A stretch of DNA of 64,000 nt, from contig DAHXMW010000010.1 of the NCBI GenBank assembly GCA_027371545.1, positions 2,697 to 66,696 on the forward strand, written 5' to 3'. Under the pieces are notes generated by a model. That model had not been told where the DNA came from and made no database searches. It saw only the letters and a list, made by a program, of their open reading frames with translations. Below are positions 3,229-62,868 of this stretch, piece after piece. A program made the position numbers and the translations under genes. Numbering within the stretch: the stretch's first letter is position 1; the number at the start of each line of letters is the position of its first letter. This DNA is from Candidatus Micrarchaeota archaeon (lineage in GTDB: Archaea; Micrarchaeota; Micrarchaeia; Micrarchaeales; CABMGC01).

Positions 3229-4458
3229 ATGGCATGCGAGATAACGGATATTTCTGTGAGGAAGATACTTGATTCTAGATGCGGGTTCACTGTGGAAGTT
3301 CTCGTGACCGGAAAGGATGGTAATAAGGCGCTTACAAGGGTGCCTAACAGCACAAGCACTGGGGAGCACGAGGTATGTGCTTATCCTAAAGACGGCATTG
3401 ATGCTGGAATTGAAAGATTCGGAAGAGTCAAGAGGCGCTTGATTGGTATGGATGCAGAAGATCAGGTAGGCATTGACTCAGCGCTTAAGTCAATAAGCGG
3501 TAAGCGCTTTGAAGAGGTAGGAGGAAATATCGCCACAGGCGTATCGTTATCTTCTGCAAAGCTTGCGGCAAAGTGCAATGGGATGGAACTTTGCGATTAC
3601 GTTAATAGAGTGCTTATGAAGGGCTCAGGAATTAATGAGGGAATTCCAAGACCCATTGGCAACCTTATCGGAGGAGGGGCGCATGCGCATTCCAATATGA
3701 GCATCCAGGAGATATTGGTATCACCGAAGGGCGAGGGCTTCATGGCAAATGCGTATGCTAATGGGCTGGCGCATAAAAAGCTTGGAGAAGAGCTAGGTGG
3801 GCGAGGTAGCGCTTATGGGGTAAATGTTGAAGGCGCATGGAACACAGGTTTGTCAGATATGGAGAATGTCAGGCTGGCGCACTCGATAGCTGATGCAATA
3901 GAAGGAGAACTTGGTGTTGAGGTGGAGCTGGGCATTGATTTTGCAGCCAGTGAGTATTATGAAGGCGGCAGATACCTTTACCCAGGCAAGAAAATAAGCA
4001 AGGAAGAGCAGATAGATTTCGTCAATAAACTTGCGCAGGAGTTCGGGATCAGATATATTGAAGACCCGATGGAGGAGAACGATTTTGAAGGCTTCGCAAA
4101 GATTAATGACGCACTTGGTGAAAGCGCATTGGTGGTAGGAGATGACATATACACAACTGACCAGGAGCGGCTTAGGACAGGAATAAAGAAGCACTCTTCC
4201 AATGCAGTATTGATAAAGGTAAACCAGATAGGAACCCTGAGCGATACAATAGATGTTGTTAGGCTTGCGCATCGGAGCGGAATGAAGACAGTGGTATCGC
4301 ACAGGAGCAGGGACACATATGATTCTTTCATCGCACACCTTGCAGTTGCATTTGGATCGGAATATATAAAATGCGGGATTGTAGGAGGGGAGCGTGTCTC
4401 CAAGCTTAACGAAGTTGCAAGGATAGAAGAGCTAAAGAAGGCGGTTCAATGGAAGTGA
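3229..4458 (+). CDS. eno: Enolase
   Basis: N-terminal ITDISVRKILDSRCGFTVEV, VLIKVNQIGTLSDT and VVSHRSRDT..DSFIAHLAV match enolase signature regions. Glycolytic neighbour of apgM. Confidence 0.9.
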   Translation: MACEITDISVRKILDSRCGFTVEVLVTGKDGNKALTRVPNSTSTGEHEVCAYPKDGIDAGIERFGRVKRRLIGMDAEDQVGIDSALKSISGKRFEEVGGNIATGVSLSSAKLAAKCNGMELCDYVNRVLMKGSGINEGIPRPIGNLIGGGAHAHSNMSIQEILVSPKGEGFMANAYANGLAHKKLGEELGGRGSAYGVNVEGAWNTGLSDMENVRLAHSIADAIEGELGVEVELGIDFAASEYYEGGRYLYPGKKISKEEQIDFVNKLAQEFGIRYIEDPMEENDFEGFAKINDALGESALVVGDDIYTTDQERLRTGIKKHSSNAVLIKVNQIGTLSDTIDVVRLAHRSGMKTVVSHRSRDTYDSFIAHLAVAFGSEYIKCGIVGGERVSKLNEVARIEELKKAVQWK

Positions 4459-6146
4459 TCATAAAATCCTGCGAGGAGGATAAAGGAATCGCTGCTGAAT
4501 CTTTCAGCGAAGAGGAGGAGAGTGAACTCCATCAATTTGCGACAAATTCCGATAGCAACGTATTTGCATGGAAGATAGGGGATCTTCTTACTGCGGAGCA
4601 GGCTGGTGCGCTTCTTTCCAGGTATAGCAGGACATCGCTTACCGGCCGGCGCCTATTTCTAAAGGAGTTCCTCCCCAACAGGGAGAGGGGCAGGGAATTC
4701 TTCGAGTCCTGGTTGGTAGATTATGGCGATGACTCCATACAGGAGATGGCAGGGGGGATACCTGTTTCTTGCGAATTTGTATCCAACCTTGCCGTAAAGG
4801 ATATAGAGGATAGCAGGCTGGCATCGTATATAGAGAAGTCTTCCAGATATGTGCCTTTTGACAAGAGGCTTCCTGGAGGAAGGTATATGTATTACAAAGG
4901 CATGGACATCTCCGAATCGAGGTTTTCCGATAAGTATGAAGACCTGATGGACGGGCTTTTTGATTCATACTCTTCAGGAATGAAAAAAATGATTCCGTAC
5001 ATAGAAGAATCTAATAGGCTTGAGGATCAGGTATTCAGGGTTCAGGATGCAACGCTTCGCATAACCGAGATGGATTCTGCAAAGGAAGAGAGATACGGAA
5101 TTTCTGAGGAAGATCTGAGGCGCGCTTACGATAATGCGGTAAAGGCGAATGCGCTTGACTTCATGAGAGACTATCTGCCAATGGCCACGCTTACGCATGT
5201 TGGAATAAGCGCGAATGCGCGATCCTACGACAACCTGGTAACCAAGATGCTTGCTTCAACGCTTGGCGAGTCAAGATGGATAGGTAAGCGCATATTGTCC
5301 GAGCTTGGAAAGCTCATACCTTCGCTTATGAAAAGGACCGGAGGTGATTATGGCCAGGCAAAGATCAATTTTATAAGGTCTTCTAGGGAAGGTGCAGAGC
5401 ATGCTGCTGCGGAGGCACTCCCCAATGCTGTTTGGAAAGGTGCTGCATCCCTTGTGGACTACACAGGCAAAGGCTTGGATAGGCCGGACGATGCGGCACA
5501 GATTAACCTATGTGCGGCTATAGTGTATCGCTTTTCAGAAGGAATAAATTTTAGGGAAGCTCTGGAATATGCTAAGGCAGCAGGACGGGAGAGGAGGGAT
5601 ATTATAATAGGTGCGTATGTTGGAAAGAGGGAGAATAGGAGGCTAAAGCCTGGGAGGGCCTTTGAGCATGTAGAGTACCTCGCCGAGTTCACAGGCAGAG
5701 TAGGAATTTATAGGGATCTGCAGAGGCACAGGATAGGCACTCAGGAAAGGCAGAGGTTAACTACAAAGATGGGATTTGAGATGCGTCCCCAGTTTGAGGA
5801 AATAGGAATCTCAGACGAGTATAAATCCAAGATGGCTCTTGCGGATGAGCTTTACAGGGAAATGCAGGAAGATATGCCATATCACGCACAGTATGTGGTG
5901 ACTTATGGTTTCCTCGCCAAATGGTATTATCGAATGAATGCCAGGCAGCTCTTCCATTTTGTTGAGCTGAGGACAACTTCAGGAGGGCATCCCGATTACA
6001 GGATGATGGCGCAGCAGCTCTTCAAGGCAGTTGAAGCCGTACATCCTTCAGTAACAAAGCATATGGGATTTGCCAACCTTGAAGACAAGAAGCTTGGAAG
6101 GCTTGATTCGGAGATAAGGATAGCTATCAAGAAACGCCGGAAATAA
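4449..6146 (+). CDS. thyX: ThyX-family (long form) FAD-dependent thymidylate synthase-like protein
   Basis: YRDLQRHRIGTQERQR resembles the ThyX RHR motif. FHFVELRTTSGGHPDYRMMAQQL resembles the C-terminal ThyX helix region. At 565 aa it is about twice the length of a single-domain ThyX. The start overlaps the eno stop by 10 nt, and the gene is convergent with glyA. Confidence 0.55.
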   Translation: MEVIIKSCEEDKGIAAESFSEEEESELHQFATNSDSNVFAWKIGDLLTAEQAGALLSRYSRTSLTGRRLFLKEFLPNRERGREFFESWLVDYGDDSIQEMAGGIPVSCEFVSNLAVKDIEDSRLASYIEKSSRYVPFDKRLPGGRYMYYKGMDISESRFSDKYEDLMDGLFDSYSSGMKKMIPYIEESNRLEDQVFRVQDATLRITEMDSAKEERYGISEEDLRRAYDNAVKANALDFMRDYLPMATLTHVGISANARSYDNLVTKMLASTLGESRWIGKRILSELGKLIPSLMKRTGGDYGQAKINFIRSSREGAEHAAAEALPNAVWKGAASLVDYTGKGLDRPDDAAQINLCAAIVYRFSEGINFREALEYAKAAGRERRDIIIGAYVGKRENRRLKPGRAFEHVEYLAEFTGRVGIYRDLQRHRIGTQERQRLTTKMGFEMRPQFEEIGISDEYKSKMALADELYREMQEDMPYHAQYVVTYGFLAKWYYRMNARQLFHFVELRTTSGGHPDYRMMAQQLFKAVEAVHPSVTKHMGFANLEDKKLGRLDSEIRIAIKKRRK

Positions 6147-26889: not shown

Positions 26890-27702
26890 ATGGATAGGAA
26901 AAGGACAATTTACATAGGCTTAGCGATTATAGTGGTTCTCGCAATTGCCTTAATAGCATCTTCATCGCTTGGAAGCGGAAACGGAGCGGCGCTTGCTGCA
27001 TATGACAACGTCAGGGTAAGTAGTGCGGTAATTAGCAATCTGAGCAGCGTTCCCAACTCTGTAAGCAATGCCGTGGGCATAAACGAGGTCAGCGATCTTC
27101 CCACAATAATAAAGAAGGGAAGCATGCTTACGGACAATGGCAAACCCGAGGTGCTTTTCATAGGCGCAGAATACTGCCCATTCTGCGCTGCGGAGAGATG
27201 GGGAATGGTGATAGCGCTGATGAGATTCGGCACATTCTCCAATCTCCATTACATGACATCAAGTCCCTCTGACGTGTTTCAAAACACGCCTACGTTCACC
27301 TTCTACAATTCTACGTATACAAGCAATTACATAACCTTCGTGCCTGTAGAGATAGAGAAGAATAAGCTTGTCAATGGTACTTATCCTACGTTGCAGACAC
27401 CGAACCAAAGCGAGAATCAGATATTTTCCACTTATAATCCATCGGGGAGCATACCTTTCATAGATTTTGCAAATAGGAGCGTGCAGATAGGTTCAAACTA
27501 CCAGCCGCCTGACGTTCTTGATGGCTACAACTGGACCCAGATATCGCATGATACCCATAATAGCTCAACTGTTCAGGCAGAGGAGGTGGTAGGCACTGCA
27601 AACCTGATTACCGCACAGATATGCGCAGTTACAAATAACACGCCGCAGAATGTCTGCAGCCAGGGTTATGTGGTCTCCGCGGAGAAGCAGCTTGGGATAT
27701 AA
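26890..27702 (+). CDS. DUF929-like membrane-anchored CxxC (thioredoxin-like) protein
   Basis: N-terminal [20 protein letters not shown] single CxxC sits in [25 protein letters not shown]. Several N-x-S/T sequons. The stop overlaps the VKOR start (TAATG). Confidence 0.6.
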
Positions 27703-28109
27703 TGGCATCAGAGAAGCTCTACAGGAAATTTCAGTTCGGGCTATCAGTACTTGGACTTATAATATCCCTTTACCTTACAGCTTACCATTATACCTCAGTG
27801 GTGCCTCTAGCGTGCCCTGATACAGGAATAATAAACTGCGCGAACGTGCTCAACAGCCCGTATGCATATCTTTTTGGGATACCGATAGCCGTATTCGGTG
27901 TGCTCTTCTTTGTCATAGAGATTTACTCCCTCCTAAGGTTAGAGATGGACCAGAGATTTCTCATTAACTCGATAGGGATAGGTTTCGTAGCGTATTTCAT
28001 ATATTTGGAATACAGGATAGGTAATATATGCATTTATTGCACTACGGTGCATGCAATAGTGGTCCTGCTCTTCGCACTCTCGTTGTATGAGGAGCTCAGG
28101 CACAAGTAG
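27702..28109 (+). CDS. Vitamin K epoxide reductase (VKOR) family membrane protein
   Basis: Four TM segments. A loop Cys pair (ACPDTGIINC), NSPYAYLFGIPIAVFG, and CIYC at the start of the last TM. These are the four conserved Cys plus Ser/Thr expected of VKOR homologs. Confidence 0.75.
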   Translation: MASEKLYRKFQFGLSVLGLIISLYLTAYHYTSVVPLACPDTGIINCANVLNSPYAYLFGIPIAVFGVLFFVIEIYSLLRLEMDQRFLINSIGIGFVAYFIYLEYRIGNICIYCTTVHAIVVLLFALSLYEELRHK

Positions 28110-52037: not shown

Positions 52038-52634
52038 TTAGCCCCTTAGCGCGGCATGGGCTATTCCCAAATACTTTAATGGGTCCATGGGCGTTTCCCT
52101 GCTTGGCCTTGGGTTGTCTGATCTCCTTCTGATAAACTCCGACATTTTGCTCTCTAGTATGGATTTGACTACTCTGTCATTTTTCGGGTTGCCGTTCAGA
52201 TGTGGTATGTGCCAGTATTCATCCATGTATGGCTTTATGTTTGCATTTAGCCTAGAGGCGAGTTCCTTCTCCTCTATCTGCGATATCACTATCACATAAA
52301 ATATGTTTCCGTATTCCTCTTTGAAGGCCTTCATCTTGTCAAGCCATTTTGGATTGCAGTTTCCATGAGGCTCTATTATGACCTGACGGCCATCGACAAA
52401 CATATTTGTTATGAAATCCGGGAAGTATCCCCTGTTCTTGCTCACAGGAAATGTCACGAGTTCATAGTATGAAAGTATGTTGCGCTCTATCAGTAGTTTC
52501 TTTATCATCTCCTCGTACTGGCTCTTAGTCTGGGTTTCGGTCGAAAGAGGCCTTAAGCTTGGAAAGTCGGAAACTCGAGCTCCCAACCTAACAAACTGCC
52601 CGCTTTTCTGCCCCACATCAGGAAAAGTTAGCAT
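52038..52634 (-). CDS. Hypothetical protein, possible PD-(D/E)XK/DUF559-like nuclease fold
   Basis: YFPDFITNMFVDGRQVIIEPHG resembles the PDF...(I/V)(I/V)E(V/x)DG strand pattern of Vsr/DUF559-type endonuclease folds. Weak call. Confidence 0.3.
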   Translation of the reverse strand: MLTFPDVGQKSGQFVRLGARVSDFPSLRPLSTETQTKSQYEEMIKKLLIERNILSYYELVTFPVSKNRGYFPDFITNMFVDGRQVIIEPHGNCNPKWLDKMKAFKEEYGNIFYVIVISQIEEKELASRLNANIKPYMDEYWHIPHLNGNPKNDRVVKSILESKMSEFIRRRSDNPRPSRETPMDPLKYLGIAHAALRG

Positions 52635-52698: not shown

Positions 52699-53739
52699 AT
52701 GGCAGTTTCTGCACAAAAACAAACTGTTAGAGACAATACTCTAGAAAGATACAAGAAGACTTTGGCGAGGTTCAAGTTGATAAGCACAGTTTCCCTGATA
52801 ATAAGCATTGTGGCGATACTCTTCTCCGTGGCAATTATTATTTTCCATCTTGGCGGGTCTAACGTAGTCTCTTATGTAAATGTGACTCAAAACTCTACTG
52901 GAACGAGCAGCAACAGCTTCGGGAGCAGGCTCACCAACATAGATGAGCCCCTAAACGCGACAGCGCTCTCCGTAATAAATAATGCGCCGACCAGCTATTT
53001 TGAGATTGCAGGGCAGAAGCTTCTCAATGGAACATTGACAGATCCAATAATACCGCAGATACCTAATTCGTCTGATACTTTTAACGAGATAGTGGTAAAT
53101 GGGAAGCCGACTGTTATTTATATAGGGGCTATTTCCTGCGTATACTGCGGAGAGAACAGGTGGGCAATGGCATTGGCACTCTCAAGGTTCGGAAACTTCA
53201 GCGAATTGTATAAGGGCTATAGCAGTTTTGGTGATCACAACCTTCCTACCTTGTACTGGATTCCTGACAACTACACCACGCAGGCGGGCGTTGGATACGG
53301 GAATTACTATTCTAGCAATTATCTCAATTTTGTATCTGCGGATTATGAATCTCCGATAGTGCAGGGATTCCAGGTGCAGCCTCTCTCGTATTTCATACAG
53401 AACGCACCGAATGAGACGTACAAGAATGCCATGAGCTTCATGAACAGCACCGGGCTTTTCCAGGGAACGCCATTCACCTTCTGGGGGAGATATGCTATAG
53501 ATGGAGCTGACGGAATTGTCTTTGGAAATTCTACCCCTACTTCTCAGACTCTCCCGCTTACGTATATGACACATGCGCAGGTTCTGCAGCAGCTTAGCAA
53601 TTTTAACGATCAGTTTGCATGGGGCGAGTATGCCGCAGCTGACGTGTACGTGGCTTATACTTGCGCGTCAATAAACAATACGGCAAGCATCTGCAGCCTC
53701 CCTGCAATAACAGGCATAGAGGCGAGGATGAAGATATGA
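52699..53739 (+). CDS. DUF929-like membrane-anchored CxxC protein (paralog of 26890..27702)
   Basis: N-terminal TM LISTVSLIISIVAILFSVAIIIF. YIGAISCVYCGENRWAMALALSRFGNF is collinear with [27 protein letters not shown] in the paralog. Many N-x-S/T sequons. Confidence 0.6.
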   Translation: MAVSAQKQTVRDNTLERYKKTLARFKLISTVSLIISIVAILFSVAIIIFHLGGSNVVSYVNVTQNSTGTSSNSFGSRLTNIDEPLNATALSVINNAPTSYFEIAGQKLLNGTLTDPIIPQIPNSSDTFNEIVVNGKPTVIYIGAISCVYCGENRWAMALALSRFGNFSELYKGYSSFGDHNLPTLYWIPDNYTTQAGVGYGNYYSSNYLNFVSADYESPIVQGFQVQPLSYFIQNAPNETYKNAMSFMNSTGLFQGTPFTFWGRYAIDGADGIVFGNSTPTSQTLPLTYMTHAQVLQQLSNFNDQFAWGEYAAADVYVAYTCASINNTASICSLPAITGIEARMKI

Positions 53740-54272
53740 TCTCTCTTGGAAGATTCTTATTGACCCTGAAAGCAATATACAAGAGACCCAGGTATGTAGC
53801 TCTTAATGTTGCATTTGTAGCGGTTTACTACTATTTGTTCAAGTATCTTGTGCTGCTTCAGAACAGAGGCATTTTCATTGTTCTTGGAGCTCCTTTGTAT
53901 CTGATATATGCAGTAGTAATTACATCATCTATTCTGATGACTGTAGCTATTTATGCCGTATTTTCCAGGAGAAGCCCTTATCACGCTTATGGAGGAGTTC
54001 TGGGAAGCGCGAGTGCAGTGGTTGCAGGAATAATAAGTGGGTGCGGATGCACAGCGCCGCTCCTACTCGGGAGTTTTACTTTGGTTGTAGGCATAAGCGA
54101 AGCTACTTATCTTAATAATTTCTTATCCGACAATACATTTGCAATACTGCTCTTCTTCCTCATTTTCAACTTGTTCATGATTGTATATTATCTGTACCGC
54201 ATGCCGGATTCGTGCATTTACGGCAGATTAAAAAGAAAGAGAGCAGCCAGTAATGTCAAGGCAAAGCGCTGA
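53736..54272 (+). CDS. Polytopic membrane protein with an intramembrane C-G-C motif (unknown family)
   Basis: From ATG 53736, which overlaps the upstream TGA as ATGA, it reads MISLGRFLL.... About 4 TM segments. Contains AGIISGCGCTAPLLLG and a C-terminal DSCIYG. The 25 upstream codons in the track ORF overlap the DUF929 gene. Confidence 0.5.
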   Translation: MISLGRFLLTLKAIYKRPRYVALNVAFVAVYYYLFKYLVLLQNRGIFIVLGAPLYLIYAVVITSSILMTVAIYAVFSRRSPYHAYGGVLGSASAVVAGIISGCGCTAPLLLGSFTLVVGISEATYLNNFLSDNTFAILLFFLIFNLFMIVYYLYRMPDSCIYGRLKRKRAASNVKAKR

Positions 54273-54276
54273 TTCT

Positions 54277-54894
54277 TTACGGAGCAGATACAAGGTGGGT
54301 TGGTATTGCTATTGCAGCTATCCCGAATGAGAGTATGCTGCCAAGCAGAAGCAGGAGCCAGAATATAACGAGTATTGCGTGCCACCCTTTCCAAGGATTC
54401 TTGCGGAGTCCCGGAAGTTTGTCGGCTATGAGTGCAACAGGATATGAAAAGATCCCTGCAAGCCCGTAGAGGAAATAGAGCGCAAGGAGTGCGATTGGTT
54501 CGCTCGTTAGGCCTATTCCGTATCCTTCTATCCCGTATATTATTACCATCAGGCCAACAAGAAGGCCTACCATGCCTATGTATTCAAGCTTTGATTTGTA
54601 CACCACTGATACAGCATATCCTATGAGTATTATTCCAAATGCTATGAGAGGATCGTAGAAGAGTATGTTGTAGCTTCCCGGAAGCGGCCATGTGAATTGC
54701 CCCCATATGCCCATTAAAAACATGTAAATGCCGAGCAGTCCCAAAGGCACACTCGAGCTTCTGATCGTATCTGAAAAGGTTGCATTCTTCCTCTTTTTGT
54801 ATATTAGATACATTGAGGATATGGTATAAAGGAGCAAGAATCCCGCAAAGCTTATTGCAAACAGTGAGAACGCAAGGTTGTCTATAAAAGCCAC
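54277..54894 (-). CDS. DUF981-like integral membrane protein
   Basis: About 6 TM segments. GQFTWPLPGSYNILFYDP resembles the DUF981 signature as I recall it. Confidence 0.45.
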   Translation of the reverse strand: MAFIDNLAFSLFAISFAGFLLLYTISSMYLIYKKRKNATFSDTIRSSSVPLGLLGIYMFLMGIWGQFTWPLPGSYNILFYDPLIAFGIILIGYAVSVVYKSKLEYIGMVGLLVGLMVIIYGIEGYGIGLTSEPIALLALYFLYGLAGIFSYPVALIADKLPGLRKNPWKGWHAILVIFWLLLLLGSILSFGIAAIAIPTHLVSAP

Positions 54895-54974: not shown

Positions 54975-57563
54975 TTATGCAGTCTTAACCTTGACAGGGC
55001 CTATACCCTTTGATTCCTTTATAAGGTCTTTCCTGAATACGGGGGATATCTCGGCTGCGACTATCTTTCCCTTTTCCGCATCTACTTTCAGATCAAGGAA
55101 CATATAGCCTGTTGTGTCCCCTACAGGTATGCTTATCCTCTTTAGGTATGGGTTATCCTTTGCTTCCTGCATTGCAGGAGATTCGGCAACTATTATCCCG
55201 TTTGCGCTTACAACCTTGAAGCTATGGAAGTGCCCACCTACGCTGAGTTCCACGTCGCTCTTCTTCTTCTCTGCGAAGCTTATCATTGCAGACTCTGTAG
55301 GGCCTACCTTATGGCTGGTCGCTATGCGTATTCCATCTATCTTGAAGCTCTCCGCGCCGTAATCGCTTCCGCTCACGGCAAATAAGCGGTCCTTCCACCC
55401 GGAATCGAGTTTGCCCTGCTCTTCATGCGCCATGAGGTGCACGGCAGTCATATCCCTAAGCCTTGTGGATTCGTCAAGCTGCCAATCCGAGTATGTCTTG
55501 TTGTAGTGGTTGCCTGAGACAAATATCACGCTGCCTCCACGCATTATGACATCGTCTATAAGGGGCATTGCTATCTCCATGAAAGGCCTCGCCTGGGCGT
55601 CTATGTTGCTTATGACCCTGCTCTTGCTCGAATAGTATGATTCAAGCAGCTTGGCCTTAAGCTCCTCTCCGCTGATTCCGGACTCTATCAGCTGCTTCTC
55701 GTAGTCTCTTGGGAATGTCACTTCGGATTCTGGCCTGTTTACGTACTTGTAATTGTTATGGTTCCCTTCTATTATGTCGCCGCTGAATATGAGGACGTCT
55801 GGCTTGCGCGCGAGGGCGTCTTTCACGCTCTCCTGCAGCAGCTTTGCATCGCTGTAGTTTCCGAAATGCACGTCGCTTATTACAGCCACCTTCATCTGGC
55901 GGGGATCCTGAGGCGGACCTTCTGCGTGGTGCGGTATTGTCTGCATTATGCCTTCGCTTCCGAGTATAGTGGCGTCCTTCTCCGTAAGCTCAGATGGCCT
56001 CTTGTTGGATGCTATTAGTAGATCCAGCCCTGGCTTGGTTGAGCCCTCAGTATCAGAATTAGGCTTGGTCCCTGTTATTAATTTCGTAGCCGCTCCTAGC
56101 TCCTCTACATCGCTTGCGCGCCTCTCTGCCTTCAGGAGCTCGGATGATATTATGGAGAACTGCACTGTGCCGTCAGGGTTTACTTTCACCATGCTTGCCC
56201 CAGAGTCGAGATAGCCTTTCTCGAAGGCCTGCGTCTGTTTCGTCTTTATCCTGCTGTTCCAGAGGCTCGCTATTCCGCTTATATCGAAGAACGGGCCCTG
56301 TGAGAGTACGGCAAGCAGGGCTTCGCTGTTGTCCTTTATCGGATCTATGCTGAAAGAGGTATATGTGTTGTTCCCGCTTACCAGCAATGTAAGAGGTTTT
56401 GAGAGGAGCTTGTCGTAGCTTAGTATCCCGCCGTTCTTGAGCAATCGCTCGAATCTATCCGGCATCTGGGAGTTGCTCGTCTTCTGATATGATTGCGAGG
56501 ACATATTCATGGAGTTGCTTACAACTAGGTTGAATTCGTATCCTCCGCTGTTCTTTTCGTACAGGGCGACTTCCTCCATGTTTACTACGACATCGCGCTT
56601 CCTTCCTAGCGCATCGCGTATTGTTGATCCGTAATAGGATAGGGCTGCCTCGCGTATCAGGTCAACCGCCTCCTTTGAGACTACAATGTTCTTTGTGAAT
56701 GTGTATGCCTGCTTCATCCTCTGCGCCATCGCATTTGTCGATTCGGTATTTATTGCATGCTCGTACCTGTAATTCAGCGCCTTGAGTATGCTTGCCTGCC
56801 GCTTTGATTCTGAGCGCAGTGTTTCTGCCTGCTGGGGCGTCGTGGAAGTGTCTTCAAGCTGGCGCTGGATATCATCCTGCCTCGCTGTTGCGTTCTTTAT
56901 CATCTTCTTTATCTCTTCTTTTGATGATTTGTCGAGGCTCATCTCATAGAGTTTCTGGAGAAGTTCCTTCCTGAAGGTAAGTTCATCAAGAATTGCGCGC
57001 TCGGCCTTGAGTTTTCTATCGACTCTTCTTAGCTCCTCTTCGCGTGCAAGTTCTGGCGATGAGTGCTGCTGCTCTGCAAGGCTTCTCCGAGAGGAAGTAT
57101 ATGCGCGTATATTGGTGCGCTGTGCACGAATCCCCTCTATTGTGCTGTCGAGGCGTGACGCGAGGCTCTCTGCACTATAAGCAAATTCCTTGTTCAGCGT
57201 GTCTTCTATAAGCTTTATGTTCTCGAAGTCTGCTTTTCCAAGGACATATATTGCAGTCGCATCGCTTGGAAGGGAATTGACAAGCCTCTCGACATGCGGC
57301 TTTACTATAGCAGCTGCATCATTAGCATTTGATACGCCACCCTTCTTTATTGAGAGTAGTTTATCCCTGTACCTCGAAGAACCTGTCATCGGAAATTCCG
57401 GTATCAGACCTCCATTTATTATTAGGAAATTGGGCTTCTCGGAATTCGGAATCTGATTTATGTAGTGTGCGAGGCCAATGAAATTGTCCTCTCCCAGATA
57501 TTCCGTCCCGCCTCCAACATCAGAGATAACCAATACGTTAAAACTTTTTTCCCCACTCTGCAT
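54975..57563 (-). CDS. Tandem calcineurin-like metallophosphoesterase: degenerate N-terminal copy with a coiled-coil insert, intact C-terminal copy
   Basis: The C-terminal half has all MPE motifs: VAVISDVHFG (DxH), IFSGDIIEG (GD), VSGNHYN (GNH) and GGHFHSF (GHxH). The N-terminal half is collinear but lacks the ligands: VLVISDVGGG, LIINGGLIPE, YVLGKADFE. A long charged helical region (EELRRVDRKLKAERAILDELTFRKELLQKLYEM...) follows. Confidence 0.65.
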   Translation of the reverse strand: MQSGEKSFNVLVISDVGGGTEYLGEDNFIGLAHYINQIPNSEKPNFLIINGGLIPEFPMTGSSRYRDKLLSIKKGGVSNANDAAAIVKPHVERLVNSLPSDATAIYVLGKADFENIKLIEDTLNKEFAYSAESLASRLDSTIEGIRAQRTNIRAYTSSRRSLAEQQHSSPELAREEELRRVDRKLKAERAILDELTFRKELLQKLYEMSLDKSSKEEIKKMIKNATARQDDIQRQLEDTSTTPQQAETLRSESKRQASILKALNYRYEHAINTESTNAMAQRMKQAYTFTKNIVVSKEAVDLIREAALSYYGSTIRDALGRKRDVVVNMEEVALYEKNSGGYEFNLVVSNSMNMSSQSYQKTSNSQMPDRFERLLKNGGILSYDKLLSKPLTLLVSGNNTYTSFSIDPIKDNSEALLAVLSQGPFFDISGIASLWNSRIKTKQTQAFEKGYLDSGASMVKVNPDGTVQFSIISSELLKAERRASDVEELGAATKLITGTKPNSDTEGSTKPGLDLLIASNKRPSELTEKDATILGSEGIMQTIPHHAEGPPQDPRQMKVAVISDVHFGNYSDAKLLQESVKDALARKPDVLIFSGDIIEGNHNNYKYVNRPESEVTFPRDYEKQLIESGISGEELKAKLLESYYSSKSRVISNIDAQARPFMEIAMPLIDDVIMRGGSVIFVSGNHYNKTYSDWQLDESTRLRDMTAVHLMAHEEQGKLDSGWKDRLFAVSGSDYGAESFKIDGIRIATSHKVGPTESAMISFAEKKKSDVELSVGGHFHSFKVVSANGIIVAESPAMQEAKDNPYLKRISIPVGDTTGYMFLDLKVDAEKGKIVAAEISPVFRKDLIKESKGIGPVKVKTA

Positions 57564-60843: not shown

Positions 60844-62868
60844 TTGCAGCTGGACTTTGTTCCTATGGTGGGTGCAAATATGGAAGATAGATATAGGAAG
60901 GCCTTGGAGGAATTCGGGGTTCTTACTTATCTGTCGCGCACTTCCTCTGGTCCGGAGGGCATCTCCATGGAGGACATAATGAAGAGCATTTTCTACTCTG
61001 CCCCAGGTATAGATTATCACAGGAGGAGCATAAAGAGCATGGTCGTTGATGGAGAGATAGCCGCAAAGGAGGGGAGGCTGCAGGATTATACCCAGATGAT
61101 AAATGTACGTGACATACTTGATGTTGCGAGGAGGCTTGTGGCTAAAGAGATTAATAAGCACGACATAGCATACCTTCGGAGTACGCTTCTTGAAGGAGTC
61201 CTTGGAATAGACGGTTCTGGGTTCAGGAGGTTCAGAAACCGATCGGGCCATTACATAACCGCTCCTACAGATGAGGTAAGCGGAGGGATGGATGCATTAG
61301 TAGAGCTTCTGAATAAGCCTTCGAAGAACGGCATAGACGCTTTTTCCAATGCCGTGGATTTCTTCCTTGGCTTCGTAAAGCTGCATCCTTTTGATGAGTG
61401 CGTTGGGAGGACGGACAGGATAGTCACGAACAGCTATCTGATAGCCCATGGAATAAACCCCATATTCCTCAACAACAATGGAAGCAGCCACTCTTACGCT
61501 TCTGCTCTTGATATATCGTATTTCTCCGGATATTATGGGGCCTTTATAGCGATAGCCCTTATTTCTGCAATGGACAACAAGAACAAGGAGGCATTTATAT
61601 CGAAGATAAAATCAGAGAGCTATACGGATCCTACAATGATAGAGCTCAAGAATCTTGTGCTTTCCGTAACGAAAGAGTTGGGAGGTGAAGAGCTGGTTAG
61701 AGTGCTGGGCCTGTCTGAAAATCTGTACTGCAAGGACTCTGCACCACTGCTCCTTTCCGGGCTTTTTGCGCTGAAGACTTACGGAATGGATAGCGAGATT
61801 ATAGAGATGGCCCTGCGGCATAAGGACAGTGGCATAAGGGCAGTAGGGTTTTATACTGCAGAGGCTGTCAATTTTGCAAAATACAAGAACGCATTTATTG
61901 ATGCTGCAATACACGATCCCAGCGTAGATGTCAGAATGGTTGCAGTGGGCATACTTGGAACCAGGAAGGAGCTTGATGGGAAAACAGCATTGAGGATACT
62001 TGCGTCTTCCACTGAAGAGACAGTTTTGATATCGCTTGGATCTGCTATGAGGTTTGCTGCAGGAGGAGATGTTGAATGCATGGATGTAATAAATGCAATT
62101 TGCGCGTCAAGGTCGAAAGATGTCAGGTTCAGGGGCTTCCAGGCGATGATGGTACATGGGGATAATGGTGCTGTGGCTAATACGATAGCTTTACTTAAAG
62201 ATGAGCCGCTTGAGATGTTCAGGGCTGCAGTAACAGAGCTGAAAAGGGTTGGAAGGATAAATGATTACGATATAGCAAAGAGCCTGGCAGACGTAGTATC
62301 TGGTGATGTGCAAAAACGCAAGATGCTTTTGGGCCAGCTGGCCATGGATGGAAGAGTATCTGATGCATATCAGGGTATGCTTAATGATGTGTTAACTTCT
62401 GACAATTCGGGTGCGGTGGAGAAGATCTACGCCGCATATCTTTTTGGTACCAAATACGGCTACGCACAGACCGTTTCAATGTATCCGGATGCAGAAAGCC
62501 TGAAGGACCATATGCTATTTGGAATAGTGAAGACAATACTTATGGTTGATGAGGCAAATGGCGGTGCTGATAAGTTAAAGCAGCGCATACCAGAACTTGT
62601 CTCAAATAGTGCCTTGCAGAACTTCGTACTTGCTTCTGAACTTGGAAGCCTTATGAAAAAAGGAGGGCTTGATGGAGAGTTGGTGAAGAAAGTTGCAGAG
62701 GCTATCGAAGCAGCAGAGCCTGTAATCAGGAACTCAGACAGATTCTACAACCTCACAGCTCAGTTGAAGAGAAAGGCAGCAATGATGAACGATCTCATTG
62801 AAGCTGGCAGGACTGGCGTGGCAGCGACAAATAGCACAGGGCTGAAGAATGCAAGAATAAAACGCTGA
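60844..62868 (+). CDS. Fic-domain protein with a degenerate active-site motif, fused to C-terminal HEAT-like repeats
   Basis: HPFDECVGRTDR (61384..61419) compared with the canonical HxFx(D/E)GNGRxxR. N-terminal STLLEG (61180..61197) fits the (S/T)xxxE(G/N) inhibitory-helix motif. The C-terminal half has repeated HKDSGIRAVGFY / HDPSVDVRMVAVGILG-type HEAT units. TTG start; the real start may be an internal ATG (MVGANMEDRY). Confidence 0.6.
   Translation: MQLDFVPMVGANMEDRYRKALEEFGVLTYLSRTSSGPEGISMEDIMKSIFYSAPGIDYHRRSIKSMVVDGEIAAKEGRLQDYTQMINVRDILDVARRLVAKEINKHDIAYLRSTLLEGVLGIDGSGFRRFRNRSGHYITAPTDEVSGGMDALVELLNKPSKNGIDAFSNAVDFFLGFVKLHPFDECVGRTDRIVTNSYLIAHGINPIFLNNNGSSHSYASALDISYFSGYYGAFIAIALISAMDNKNKEAFISKIKSESYTDPTMIELKNLVLSVTKELGGEELVRVLGLSENLYCKDSAPLLLSGLFALKTYGMDSEIIEMALRHKDSGIRAVGFYTAEAVNFAKYKNAFIDAAIHDPSVDVRMVAVGILGTRKELDGKTALRILASSTEETVLISLGSAMRFAAGGDVECMDVINAICASRSKDVRFRGFQAMMVHGDNGAVANTIALLKDEPLEMFRAAVTELKRVGRINDYDIAKSLADVVSGDVQKRKMLLGQLAMDGRVSDAYQGMLNDVLTSDNSGAVEKIYAAYLFGTKYGYAQTVSMYPDAESLKDHMLFGIVKTILMVDEANGGADKLKQRIPELVSNSALQNFVLASELGSLMKKGGLDGELVKKVAEAIEAAEPVIRNSDRFYNLTAQLKRKAAMMNDLIEAGRTGVAATNSTGLKNARIKR

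What the first reader, a model, noticed from the sequence alone, without database searches (positions are those of the whole stretch)
52699..54272. Second DUF929-like CxxC protein coupled to a non-VKOR membrane protein with a C-G-C motif: a possible undescribed redox pair
**Seen in sequence**
- ORF 52699..53739 is a clear paralog of 26890..27702. Both have the same N-terminal anchor, and the CxxC blocks are collinear: YIGAISCVYCGENRWAMALALSRFGNF versus [27 protein letters not shown].
- Like its paralog, it is start/stop-overlapped (ATGA at 53736..53739) with a small polytopic membrane protein.
- In the other locus that partner is a textbook VKOR. Here the partner is an unrelated ~178-aa, ~4-TM protein. 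Its only conspicuous features are a Cys-Gly-Cys inside a predicted TM helix (AGIISGCGCTAPLLLG) and a C-terminal Cys (DSCIYG).

**Inference**
By guilt by association, this membrane protein may re-oxidise or reduce the DUF929 CxxC. That would make it a functional analog of VKOR/DsbB/CcdA from a family I cannot place. The downstream DUF981-like membrane protein (54277..54894, opposite strand) may or may not belong to it.
Basis: partly seen in the sequence, partly recalled or inferred. Interest (0 to 1): 0.75.

Follow-up and report, generated by a model that had tools for sequence, protein, structure and literature searches.

The report
Micrarchaeal thioredoxin-like protein with CxC membrane partner
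A secreted, membrane-anchored thioredoxin-like protein and an uncharacterised small four-helix membrane protein with an invariant Cys-x-Cys form a conserved, translationally coupled gene pair in Micrarchaeota (tiny DPANN archaea), often just upstream of secY; it is probably a new disulfide-exchange pair, but this is untested.

Summary
ORF 52699..53739 is a DUF929 (thioredoxin-like, CxxC) paralog of 26890..27702. It overlaps by ATGA a 178-aa membrane ORF (53736..54272).

That ORF has no Pfam, NCBIfam, PDB-sequence or Foldseek match. It belongs to a real family of 118 clusters at 50% identity. Genome hits are almost all Candidatus Micrarchaeota.

Family features:
- The Cys pair is near-invariant (CxC, mostly CGC; rarely CxxC).
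- It sits at a break in the third hydrophobic helix, in the membrane core.
- Conserved Tyr31/32, Thr/Ser63-65 and Asn145 lie at similar predicted depths (sequence-based estimate).

The DUF929–CxC adjacency holds in 25 of 33 loci reached from the CxC side. It holds in 51 of 71 loci reached from the DUF929 side, in several flanking contexts. The usual order is DUF929→CxC→V4R-like→SecY.

The C-terminal Cys occurs in only about half the family. DUF981 is not part of the unit.

The closest functional precedent is bacterial MauE/MauD, where a CXC-only membrane oxidase partners a Trx-fold protein. CcdA/DsbD is the other precedent. Homology to either was tested and not found.

A redox pair is the best reading (about 0.5), with direction unresolved. 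Rivals are soft-metal relay and a translocon-associated role.

The parts
52699..53739 (+). DUF929b: membrane-anchored, extracytoplasmic thioredoxin-like protein (346 aa). It has an N-terminal TM helix, CxxC (C147/C150), a conserved G-T-P loop (256-258), invariant H292 and a C-terminal Cys pair C322/C332.
   Evidence: - PF06053, E 9.4e-13.
- CxxC, C322/C332, H292 and P258 are invariant in 21 or 25 orthologs.
- AF2 pLDDT 88. The model shows a long N-terminal helix 4-51 and a strand 136-144, with CxxC at the N-terminus of helix 148-161.
- 618 homologs, all of the listed 120 PF06053.
53137..53148 (+). CxxC active-site codons of DUF929b (C-V-Y-C).
   Evidence: Sequence read. Invariant in all aligned orthologs.
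53736..53739 (+). ATGA start/stop overlap between DUF929b and the CxC membrane gene, suggesting translational coupling.
   Evidence: In 52 of 53 related loci the estimated gap is -4 to +31 nt.
53736..54272 (+). CxC membrane protein (178 aa). It is a member of an uncharacterised 4-TM family that in the genome scan is almost entirely Micrarchaeota.
   Evidence: - No Pfam, NCBIfam or PDB hit.
- Family of 118 cluster representatives.
- AF2 pLDDT 83.7, pTM 0.77.
- K/R-rich N-terminus, loop 2-3 and tail.
54042..54050 (+). Cys103-Gly104-Cys105 codons, the family-defining CxC. The motif sits at a break between helix 86-101 and helix 107-115.
   Evidence: C103 97/97, C105 96/97, G104 72/97. Helix break in AF2. 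Motif [GS]-C-x-C-x-x-P-[ILV]-[LIV].
54213..54215 (+). Cys160, a cytoplasmic-face Cys just after TM4. It is conserved only in a subfamily.
   Evidence: Present at +57..+59 from the CxC in 56 of 117 members. Another 14 have a Cys at about -11/-5 in the cytoplasmic half of TM3. 35 have none.
26890..27702 (+). Comparator: DUF929a paralog (CPFC active site), partner of VKOR.
   Evidence: PF06053, E 1.6e-29. 29% identical to DUF929b.
27702..28109 (+). Comparator: canonical VKOR with a loop Cys pair plus CxxC. It is the oxidising membrane partner of DUF929a.
   Evidence: PF07884, E 1.1e-23. NCBIfam VKOR model NF011480 matched at E 1.8e-21 (77 bits), below its curated cutoff of 120 bits. Sequence.

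Best explanation
The two genes encode a dedicated extracytoplasmic thiol-disulfide pair.

**DUF929b.** It is tethered by one N-terminal helix and carries a thioredoxin-like domain with a CxxC outside the cell. There it exchanges disulfides with exported proteins.

**The CxC protein.** This 178-aa, 4-TM protein is its membrane redox partner. Its only invariant cysteines are a CxC at a break in the third helix. They are proposed to cycle between dithiol and disulfide and to exchange with the DUF929b CxxC. Conserved Tyr31/32, Thr/Ser63-65 and Asn145 are placed at similar depths by their position within the predicted helices.

**Direction is not settled.** I slightly favour a CcdA/DsbD-like conduit that brings reducing equivalents from the cytoplasm (about 0.28). 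The alternative is a MauE/DsbB/VKOR-like oxidase that dumps electrons on a quinone (about 0.22).

**Shown:** the family is real, the Cys pair is invariant, the topology prediction places the motif in the membrane, the gene adjacency and overlap are conserved, and DUF929b has thioredoxin-like features.

**Inferred:** any thiol exchange between the two proteins, the direction of electron flow, and the cytoplasmic or quinone partner.
For: 1. **Trx-type features of DUF929b.**
 - CxxC lies at the N-terminus of a helix that follows a strand, there is a G-T-P loop before a strand, and the domain follows a single anchor helix.
 - DUF929 was placed in the thioredoxin clan by HHpred (PMC3091736).
 - DUF929 proteins were found in the Picrophilus secretome (PMC8345856).
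2. **Paralog precedent.** The paralog in the same window is start/stop-coupled to a canonical VKOR. DUF929 proteins therefore do work with membrane redox enzymes.
3. **Cys pair.** It is invariant across 97 aligned sequences at 20-80% identity to the window protein, and rare members have CxxC instead.
4. **Adjacency from the CxC side.**
 - 10 of 10 context look-ups have DUF929 directly upstream.
 - 15 of 23 informative genome loci do as well.
5. **Adjacency from the DUF929b side.**
 - 51 of 71 informative metagenome loci have CxC directly downstream, with a gap of -4..+31 nt in 52 of 53.
 - 2 of 2 further look-ups agree.
6. **Stability of the pair.** It persists in at least three flanking contexts. 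In 13 of 40 loci it is present without V4R/SecY downstream.
7. **Operon with secY.** This fits a role in maturation of exported proteins.
8. **Precedent for a CXC-only partner.** MauE is a small polytopic membrane protein whose only cysteines are a CGC. It replaces DsbB in E. coli and works with Trx-fold MauD (bioRxiv 10.64898/2026.03.05.709764).
9. **For the reductive direction.**
 - The Cys pair sits in a hydrophobic helix break with a C-x-x-P signature. hhalign places it on the DsbD TM4 Cys, though not significantly.
 - A cytoplasm-side third Cys occurs in about 60% of members.
 - An oxidising VKOR pair is already present in this genome.
10. **For the oxidative direction.**
 - Conserved Asn and Tyr residues lie near the Cys pair in the predicted helices. 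From my own recollection, not checked here, VKOR uses an Asn and a Tyr to bind its quinone.
 - The unit occupies a core-gene position next to secY.
Against: - There is no detectable homology to any redox membrane family. Pfam on all 97 members, hhalign against DsbD, VKOR and MauE, and Foldseek against the PDB all failed.
- Adjacency is not obligatory.
 - Eight of 23 genome loci have CxC without DUF929, for example TatD | CxC→SecY in L034/L035.
 - Four peat loci have DUF929b→V4R→SecY with no CxC.
- Most supporting loci share one ancestral synteny, so they are not independent events.
- The CxC lies in a hydrophobic stretch. Access for a folded Trx domain is unproven.
- No model coordinates or complex model could be obtained.
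- No quinone, thioredoxin or thioredoxin-reductase link was shown.
- There is no experimental evidence.
Confidence: 0.5

Rival explanations
1. Variant of the pair idea: the CxC protein is a quinone-linked disulfide generator, a functional analog of MauE, DsbB or VKOR. It re-oxidises DUF929b, which then oxidises proteins emerging from SecY. This probability is already counted within the 0.5 given to the redox-pair explanation.
For: - MauE precedent: 4 TM helices, CGC between TM3 and TM4 as the only cysteines and essential for activity, X usually Gly or Ala, partner Trx-fold MauD.
- Conserved Asn145, Tyr31/32 and Tyr151/152 lie near the Cys pair in the predicted helices.
- The unit occupies a core position in an apparent operon with secY across the lineage.
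- DUF929b is far better conserved than its partner, as expected for a general oxidase.
Against: - hhalign against Paracoccus MauE gives probability 0.9% and does not even align the CGC motifs.
- MauE was not among the 25 most frequently matched Pfam families in the 97 members.
- The MauE signature is absent (F-G after CXC, conserved Lys in TM1 and Glu in TM2).
- The CGC of MauE sits in a hydrophilic loop (RGRTQIDCGCFRNG). Here it sits in a hydrophobic stretch.
- Many members come from peat and sediment DPANN archaea. I expect a quinone pool and terminal acceptor to be doubtful there; this is my own knowledge and was not tested.
- The same genome already has VKOR plus DUF929a.
Confidence: 0.22
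2. Soft-metal relay. DUF929b would bind a thiophilic ion such as Hg(II), Cu(I), Ag(I), Cd(II) or As(III) with its CxxC outside the cell, like MerP or a Sco/ArsD-type Trx-fold metallochaperone. It would hand the ion to the intramembrane CxC, as MerP hands Hg to the Cys pair of MerT. The ion would then move to a cytoplasm-side Cys.
For: - Motif-level resemblance: gCGCsaPil compared with MerT ACCLGPLVL, MerC GCAACFPAI and MerE TCPCHLPIL. hhalign aligns these motifs, with MerC probability 14% and MerE 7%, neither significant.
- Architecture: a Cys pair within a TM helix, the next TM helix, then a cytoplasmic Cys. This resembles MerT TM1, TM2 and C76/C82.
- Conserved Asn, Tyr and Ser/Thr residues in the predicted helices recall, from my own memory and not checked here, the P1B-ATPase CPC + YN + MxxSS site.
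- H292 is invariant in DUF929.
- Many members come from acid-mine-drainage MAGs.
Against: - No merR, merA, merP, copA or HMA genes occur in any of the inspected neighbourhoods.
- The pair sits among housekeeping genes (SRP54, TatD, SecY, PolD, cmk, L34e), not in accessory islands.
- The DUF929 paralog pairs with VKOR, which is a redox context.
- One third of members have no third Cys.
- No conserved Met or His is found in the membrane protein.
- All hhalign results are non-significant.
Confidence: 0.15
3. No direct thiol exchange with DUF929b. The CxC protein would be a translocon- or envelope-associated membrane protein that shares an operon with secY. Examples are an accessory factor of SecY or of the V4R-like protein, or a small-molecule channel. 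Its CxC would serve a structural, cofactor-binding or other role, and the DUF929 adjacency would reflect co-expression only.
For: - The CxC→(V4R)→SecY link is as frequent as the DUF929 link in genome loci: 15 of 23 each.
- CxC stays next to SecY when DUF929 is absent (L029, L030, L034, L035).
- DUF929b stays next to V4R/SecY when CxC is absent (L063, L075, L079, L080).
- The fold has no match to any redox enzyme.
Against: - An invariant vicinal Cys pair is hard to explain by a purely structural role.
- The DUF929b-CxC pair survives without V4R/SecY in 13 of 40 loci and in the window itself.
- The near-universal 0-10 nt spacing or 4-nt overlap suggests stoichiometric co-production.
Confidence: 0.28

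Closest known systems
MauE/MauD (bacterial; PF07291 MauE, DoxX-like clan). MauE was shown in a 2026 preprint to replace DsbB through its CXC motif.
   Same: - Both membrane proteins are small and polytopic.
- Their only conserved cysteines are a CxC, with X mostly Gly or Ala, lying between the third and fourth helices.
- The partner is an adjacent, membrane-anchored Trx-fold CxxC protein.
- The genes are tightly coupled: 1-nt gap in Paracoccus, 4-nt overlap here.
   Different: - No sequence or profile similarity: hhalign probability 0.9%, and MauE not among the 25 most matched Pfam families in the 97 members.
- The MauE hallmarks (CXC-F-G, Lys in TM1, Glu in TM2) are absent.
- The MauE CGC lies in a charged periplasmic loop. 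Here it lies in a hydrophobic helix break followed by x-x-P-[IL]-[LI].
- Gene order is reversed, with the Trx-like gene first here.
- The lineage is archaeal (Micrarchaeota).
CcdA / DsbD transmembrane domain (PF02683)
   Same: - Two redox cysteines and no others are needed.
- The cysteines lie in the membrane core at kinked or broken helices with a Cys-x-x-Pro signature.
- Both serve extracytoplasmic Trx-fold partners.
- hhalign's best local match places the family's second Cys on the DsbD TM4 Cys (CTTAPLSAILL).
   Different: - The match covers 10 columns at probability 0.16%, so it is not evidence of homology.
- There are 4 TM helices with no internal repeat, against 6 TM helices as two 3-TM repeats.
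- The two Cys are vicinal on one helix rather than on TM1 and TM4.
- No Foldseek match to CcdA structures appeared among the listed PDB hits.
VKOR (PF07884) and DsbB
   Same: - Both are roughly 4-TM membrane proteins.
- Both are genetically coupled to an extracytoplasmic Trx-fold CxxC protein.
- In this window the DUF929a paralog is coupled to a true VKOR.
- Conserved Asn and Tyr lie near the Cys pair in the predicted helices.
   Different: - No Pfam hit. hhalign against the window's own VKOR gives probability 0.09%.
- No Foldseek match to DsbB or VKOR appeared among the listed PDB hits.
- There is one Cys pair instead of two. It is CxC rather than CxxC, and there is no loop Cys pair.
Mer transporters MerT/MerC/MerE/MerF with periplasmic MerP
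   Same: - A Cys pair inside a TM helix is followed by Pro and Leu-rich sequence.
- Many members have a cytoplasm-side Cys after the next helix.
- The partner outside the membrane has a CxxC.
   Different: - No significant profile similarity.
- No mer genes are nearby.
- The context is housekeeping.
- The partner has a Trx fold, not an HMA fold.

Membership tests
DUF929 (PF06053), for ORF 52699..53739 | Pfam model match above the gathering score | tested here: met
   48.7 bits against a cutoff of 24.6, E 9.4e-13, profile positions 11-202 of 205. All of the best 120 homologs carry PF06053.
Thioredoxin-like fold oxidoreductase, for ORF 52699..53739 | CxxC at the N-terminus of a helix that follows a beta-strand | tested here: met
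   AF2 (pLDDT 88) gives strand 136-144, C147/C150 and helix 148-161. CxxC is invariant.
Thioredoxin-like fold oxidoreductase, for ORF 52699..53739 | cis-Pro loop preceding a strand, and overall structural match to Trx or DsbA folds | tested here: inconclusive
   - G256-T257-P258 is conserved (P258 invariant; G256 and T257 at least 90%) and is followed by strands 259-262 and 265-268.
- Foldseek of the whole model against the PDB gave no hit with E below 1. Only scattered Trx, DsbA, DsbG, DsbH and ScsC hits appeared at E 2.7-5.
- The PDB profile search was empty.
- HHpred assignment to the clan is reported in PMC3091736.
VKOR (PF07884), for ORF 53736..54272 | Profile match to VKOR, with a loop Cys pair plus CxxC in TM4 | tested here: not met
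   No Pfam or NCBIfam hit. hhalign against the window VKOR gives probability 0.09%. Only one conserved Cys pair, a CxC.
DsbB, for ORF 53736..54272 | DsbB fold or profile, with two periplasmic Cys pairs | tested here: not met
   Not among the listed Pfam matches. Foldseek against the PDB gave a best E of 1.2 and TM at most 0.36, with no DsbB among the listed matches. One Cys pair only.
CcdA/DsbD (PF02683), for ORF 53736..54272 | Profile match, with 6 TM helices as two 3-TM repeats and one Cys in each of TM1 and TM4 | tested here: not met
   Not among the listed Pfam matches. hhalign against E. coli DsbD gives 10 columns at probability 0.16% and 0.3% against the beta domain. AF2 and hydropathy give 4 TM helices with no repeat.
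CcdA/DsbD (PF02683), for ORF 53736..54272 | Redox Cys in the membrane core at a Pro-kinked helix (C-x-x-P) | tested here: inconclusive
   The motif C-x-[AS]-P-[IL]-[LI] has Pro in 68 of 97 members. AF2 shows a helix break at 102-106. The mid-stretch position follows from hydropathy and K/R counts. This is a resemblance only.
MauE (PF07291), for ORF 53736..54272 | Profile or sequence similarity to MauE | tested here: not met
   MauE is not among the 25 most frequently matched Pfam families in the 97 members at E<=10. hhalign against P. denitrificans and P. yeei MauE gives probability 0.9%, with the CGC motifs not aligned.
MauE (PF07291), for ORF 53736..54272 | CXC (X small) as the sole conserved Cys pair between TM3 and TM4, with an adjacent Trx-fold CxxC partner | tested here: met
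   C103 97/97 and C105 96/97. X is Gly in 72, Ala in 11 and Ser in 7. DUF929b is adjacent. Features of MauE are taken from the preprint.
MauE (PF07291), for ORF 53736..54272 | CXC followed by conserved Phe-Gly, conserved Lys (TM1) and Glu (TM2), and CXC in a hydrophilic periplasmic loop | tested here: not met
   - Here the CXC is followed by [ST]-A-P-[IL]-[LI].
- The conserved residues are Y31/Y32, T63/S64/S65 and N145.
- No conserved Lys or Glu occurs in TM1 or TM2.
- The flanks are hydrophobic, with zero K/R in positions 88-118.
Mer transporters (MerT/MerC/MerE), for ORF 53736..54272 | Profile similarity and mer operon context (merR, merP, merA) | tested here: not met
   hhalign probabilities are 0.5% (MerT), 14% (MerC) and 7% (MerE), all non-significant. 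No mer genes occur in any inspected locus.
Any redox function of the pair | Reversible disulfide in the CxC and thiol exchange with DUF929b | not testable with these tools
   This needs biochemistry or genetics. A complex prediction was not possible, because the structure tool takes single chains and returns no coordinates.

The most novel reading that the evidence does not exclude
The CxC protein founds a structurally new family of membrane thiol-disulfide oxidoreductases, unrelated to DsbB, VKOR, MauE and CcdA. Together with DUF929b, and possibly the V4R-like protein, it would form a translocon-linked folding module co-transcribed with secY. This module would be the core extracytoplasmic redox system of Micrarchaeota, small-genome DPANN archaea.
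Probability: 0.3. Interest if true: 0.75.

Novelty: new variant of a known kind. Interest (0 to 1): 0.6.

Why it matters
- **A further route for extracytoplasmic disulfide exchange.** The membrane enzymes known to feed extracytoplasmic disulfide exchange were long limited to DsbB, VKOR and CcdA/DsbD. MauE was added only in 2026. The authors of that work state that about 20% of bacterial species in their data set still lack any known oxidase. An unrelated archaeal family with the same minimal logic would show this logic arose more than once. That logic is one vicinal Cys pair in a small membrane protein plus a tethered Trx-fold partner.
- **First candidate for Micrarchaeota.** I found no described extracytoplasmic redox system for this DPANN phylum in the literature searched here.
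- **Link to secY.** The apparent operon link would tie oxidative or reductive folding directly to the translocon.
- **Directly testable.** The proteins are small, and standard E. coli dsbB and dsbD complementation assays exist.

Tried and rejected
- **Family searches.** Pfam and NCBIfam on the 178-aa protein, and Pfam on all 97 family members at E<=10, gave no recurrent family.
- **PDB searches.** A PDB sequence-profile search gave only chance hits such as PsbZ at E 0.18. Foldseek of the AF2 model against the PDB gave nothing (best E 1.2).
- **Profile-profile comparisons.** hhalign against E. coli DsbD, the window VKOR, MerT/C/E/P and Paracoccus MauE was non-significant in every case.
- **DUF929b structure.** Foldseek of the DUF929b model against the PDB was not significant, probably because the long anchor helix and insertions spoil the global alignment. 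The PDB profile search was empty.
- **Genome scan.** A motif-selected sub-alignment A4 worked but samples only members with [GS]CGC[TS]AP[IL][LI][FYL].
- **DUF981 (54277..54894) as a third component.** Rejected, because it is adjacent only in the two close relatives L002 and L016.
- **C-terminal Cys as a family feature.** Rejected, because it is present in about half of members.
- **Domain fusions (Rosetta stone).** None found. The long hit P0085 is a read-through into the V4R-like gene.
- **Literature.** Searches for DUF929/PF06053, for VKOR with archaea, DsbA and Sulfolobus, and for Micrarchaeota with disulfide found nothing describing this pair.
Full report
**1. Observation**

- The region holds ORF 52699..53739 (+, 346 aa) and an ORF whose ATG at 53736 overlaps the upstream stop as ATGA. 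This gives a 178-aa product ending at 54272.
- The 346-aa protein matches PF06053 (DUF929) above threshold.
- It is 29% identical (E 1e-17) to the product of 26890..27702. That gene is itself DUF929 and is start/stop-coupled to a canonical VKOR at 27702..28109.
- The 178-aa protein has no Pfam or NCBIfam hit.
- ORF 54277..54894 (-) is DUF981.

**2. The membrane protein belongs to a real, uncharacterised family**

- A word-indexed search found only four relatives.
- An exhaustive profile search of 1.84 billion cluster representatives found 118 with E<=1e-3 and 95 with E<=1e-10. Nearly all are 150-210 aa.
- None of the 18 relatives returned by the annotated-database search carries a Pfam domain or an informative name.
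- In an alignment of 97 members at 20-80% identity to the window protein, C103 is invariant and C105 is present in 96.
- The middle residue is Gly in 72, Ala in 11 and Ser in 7. A few members have CxxC instead (GCASCQAP).
- Other conserved positions are Y31 (92/97), Y32, P53, Y58, T63/S64/S65, G97, P108 (68/97), N145 (91/97) and Y151/Y152.
- The local signature is [GS]-C-x-C-x-x-P-[ILV]-[LIV].
- Another 14 members have a Cys about 11 or 5 residues before the CxC. Thirty-five have no third Cys.

**3. Structure and topology**

- AlphaFold2 with the 97-sequence alignment gave pLDDT 83.7 and pTM 0.77.
- Predicted helices are 4-15, 18-42, 54-77, 86-101, 107-115, 120-132 and 134-155, plus a tail helix. 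The only break inside a hydrophobic stretch is at 102-106, which is G-C-G-C-T.
- Family-averaged K+R counts are 4.2 (N-terminus), 0.2 (loop 1-2), 2.1 (loop 2-3), 0.2 (loop 3-4, which is acidic instead) and 4.4 (tail).
- This gives an N-in/C-in four-span protein. The CxC is about 15 residues from the cytoplasmic start of the third span and about 13 from its outer end.
- By their positions in the predicted helices, Y31/32, T63-S65 and N145 sit at comparable depths. No coordinates were available to check distances.
- Foldseek against the PDB found nothing (best E 1.2, TM at most 0.36). No DsbB, VKOR, CcdA or Mer structure appears among the listed matches.

**4. The partner**

- DUF929b orthologs are much better conserved than the membrane protein, at 41-64% identity against 20-40%.
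- C147/C150 (CxxC), C322/C332, H292 and P258 of the G-T-P 256-258 loop are invariant.
- AF2 (pLDDT 88) predicts a long N-terminal anchor helix and a disordered linker. A strand follows, then CxxC at the start of a helix, and later G-T-P followed by two strands and C-terminal helices. This is the thioredoxin order of elements.
- Foldseek and a PDB profile search gave no significant hit.
- Literature places DUF929 in the thioredoxin clan by HHpred (PMC3091736). It also reports DUF929 proteins in the Picrophilus secretome (PMC8345856).

**5. Taxonomy and context**

- *Taxonomy.* A motif-seeded scan of one genome per GTDB species returned 24 loci.
  - 23 are labelled Candidatus Micrarchaeota, Micrarchaeia or Micrarchaeaceae. 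One is a 'Ca. Acidoferrum' MAG with the same synteny.
  - The closest locus (78% identity, L016) is syntenic with the window, so the window is micrarchaeal.
- *From the CxC side.*
  - All 10 context look-ups show a PF06053 gene immediately upstream.
  - Of 23 informative genome loci, 15 do so.
- *From the DUF929b side.*
  - A metagenome scan gave 80 loci.
  - Of 71 with at least 550 nt downstream, 51 have a CxC-family ORF directly downstream on the same strand.
  - The estimated spacing is -4 to +31 nt in 52 of 53.
  - Two further look-ups agree.
- *Commonest arrangement.* This is SRP54 … TatD← | DUF929b→CxC→V4R-like (about 340 aa)→SecY, with short gaps or overlaps.
- *Pair without V4R/SecY.* Thirteen of 40 pair-bearing loci, and the window itself, lack V4R/SecY downstream. 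The DUF929b-CxC pair is therefore the more stable unit.
- *Exceptions.*
  - CxC occurs without DUF929 in L025, L026, L029, L030, L034, L035, L037 and L039.
  - DUF929b→V4R→SecY occurs with no room for CxC in L063, L075, L079 and L080.
- *Other neighbours.*
  - DUF981 is adjacent only in close relatives.
  - No mer, cop, thioredoxin-reductase or quinone genes were seen in any neighbourhood.

**6. Comparison with known systems**

- Profile-profile tests were negative:
  - E. coli DsbD, probability 0.16%;
  - the window VKOR, 0.09%;
  - MerT 0.5%, MerC 14% and MerE 7%;
  - DsbD beta domain, 0.3%.
- Even so, the best local match to DsbD places the family's second Cys on the DsbD TM4 redox Cys (CTTAPLSAILL). 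The Mer alignments likewise pair the Cys motifs. This is a motif-level resemblance shared by proteins that carry reactive Cys in a Pro-kinked membrane helix.
- A 2026 preprint (10.64898/2026.03.05.709764) reports several findings on MauE:
  - It is a small polytopic membrane protein whose only cysteines are a CGC between TM3 and TM4.
  - It replaces DsbB in E. coli, and both Cys are essential.
  - X is usually Gly or Ala.
  - The authors propose Trx-fold MauD as its DsbA-like partner.
- I retrieved MauE and MauD from Paracoccus plasmids and compared them.
  - hhalign gives probability 0.9% and does not align the CGC motifs.
  - The MauE CGC sits in a charged loop (RGRTQIDCGCFRNG).
  - The MauE signature residues are absent here.
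- The window family is therefore not a MauE. It has the same minimal design.

**7. Mechanism**

The best-supported reading is a dedicated thiol-disulfide pair (about 0.5).

- Arguments for a CcdA-like reductive conduit:
  - the membrane-core, Pro-kinked location of the Cys pair;
  - a cytoplasm-side third Cys in about 60% of members;
  - the coexistence of an oxidising VKOR-DUF929a pair in the same genome;
  - Thr before the putative cis-Pro and an aromatic CxxC dipeptide. From my own knowledge, not tested here, these resemble DsbC and DsbG.
- Arguments for a MauE/DsbB-like oxidase:
  - the MauE precedent;
  - the conserved Asn and Tyr residues near the Cys pair;
  - the core position next to secY.
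- I split the probability about 0.28 to 0.22.
- Rivals are a Mer-like soft-metal relay (0.15) and a translocon-associated role without direct thiol exchange (0.28).
- Everything beyond gene structure, conservation, predicted topology and synteny is inference.

**8. Verdict**

- This is a real, conserved, unannotated gene pair that in the genome scan is almost entirely micrarchaeal.
- Its function remains unproven.
- It is best filed as a new variant of a known kind: a Trx-fold protein plus a membrane redox partner.
- Interest is 0.6.

Noticed in passing
L003:5537-8016, L001:6049-8573, L042:6537-9119 and many others; not in the window: In most Micrarchaeota loci the pair is followed by a roughly 340-aa protein and then by secY, often with overlapping stop and start codons. 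In that protein only residues about 115-175 match the V4R domain (PF02830). secY thus appears to sit in an operon with DUF929b, CxC and V4R rather than at the end of a ribosomal-protein operon. No SecY or V4R homolog is in the window (tblastn).
   Followed up: partly
window 52038..52634 (-): This 198-aa ORF is transcribed divergently from DUF929b and has no Pfam hit. It is weakly similar (26% over 144 aa, E 1e-6) to the unknown gene that sits divergently upstream of DUF929b in L003, L005, L094 and L096. This suggests the window locus derives from the TatD/SecY-type arrangement. By eye its 'YFPDF…IIEPHG' stretch looks like a PD-(D/E)xK nuclease motif; this was not tested.
   Followed up: partly
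window 26890..28109 (+): DUF929a (active site CPFC; Ile before the putative cis-Pro) is start/stop-coupled to a canonical VKOR with a loop Cys pair plus CxxC. It matches the Pfam DUF929 model much better than DUF929b does (E 1.6e-29 against 9e-13).
   Followed up: partly
L042 (GCA_023473665.1) and L043: DUF929b homologs labelled 'Candidatus Marsarchaeota' in NCBI, and one labelled 'Methanothrix sp.' (P0149), are 60-70% identical to the window protein. The two Marsarchaeota-labelled ones that were looked up lie in the typical Micrarchaeota synteny (SRP54, GTPase, TatD, DUF929, CxC, V4R, SecY). Either the labels or bins are wrong, or the cluster is shared across phyla.
   Followed up: partly
L026:5977-7384: In one Micrarchaeota MAG the CxC gene has no DUF929 neighbour. 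About 380 nt downstream on the same strand lies a methionine sulfoxide reductase A-like ORF (GCFWC motif, identified by eye only). This is a single case.
   Followed up: no
L063, L075, L079, L080 (peat metagenome Ga0326727): This lineage has DUF929b directly followed by V4R-like and SecY, with no space for a CxC gene. Either CxC was lost or it was relocated.
   Followed up: partly
window 54975..57563 (-): An 862-aa protein in which only a short Metallophos (calcineurin-like phosphoesterase) match at residues 557-616 was found. A 25%-identical 951-aa homolog lies upstream of TatD in L038.
   Followed up: no
window 4449..6146 (+) and 60844..62868 (+): A 565-aa protein carries the ThyX (Thy1) domain only in its C-terminal part (two matched stretches). 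A 674-aa protein has a Fic/DOC domain. Both are unusual architectures and were not examined further.
   Followed up: no
P0124, P0125, P0128, P0130 and relatives (clade of L005-L015): The clade that lacks the tail Cys has one or two extra Cys in the cytoplasmic half of TM3, at about -11 and -5 from the CxC (SFGCMIAGCGC). This forms a ladder of Cys along one helix.
   Followed up: partly
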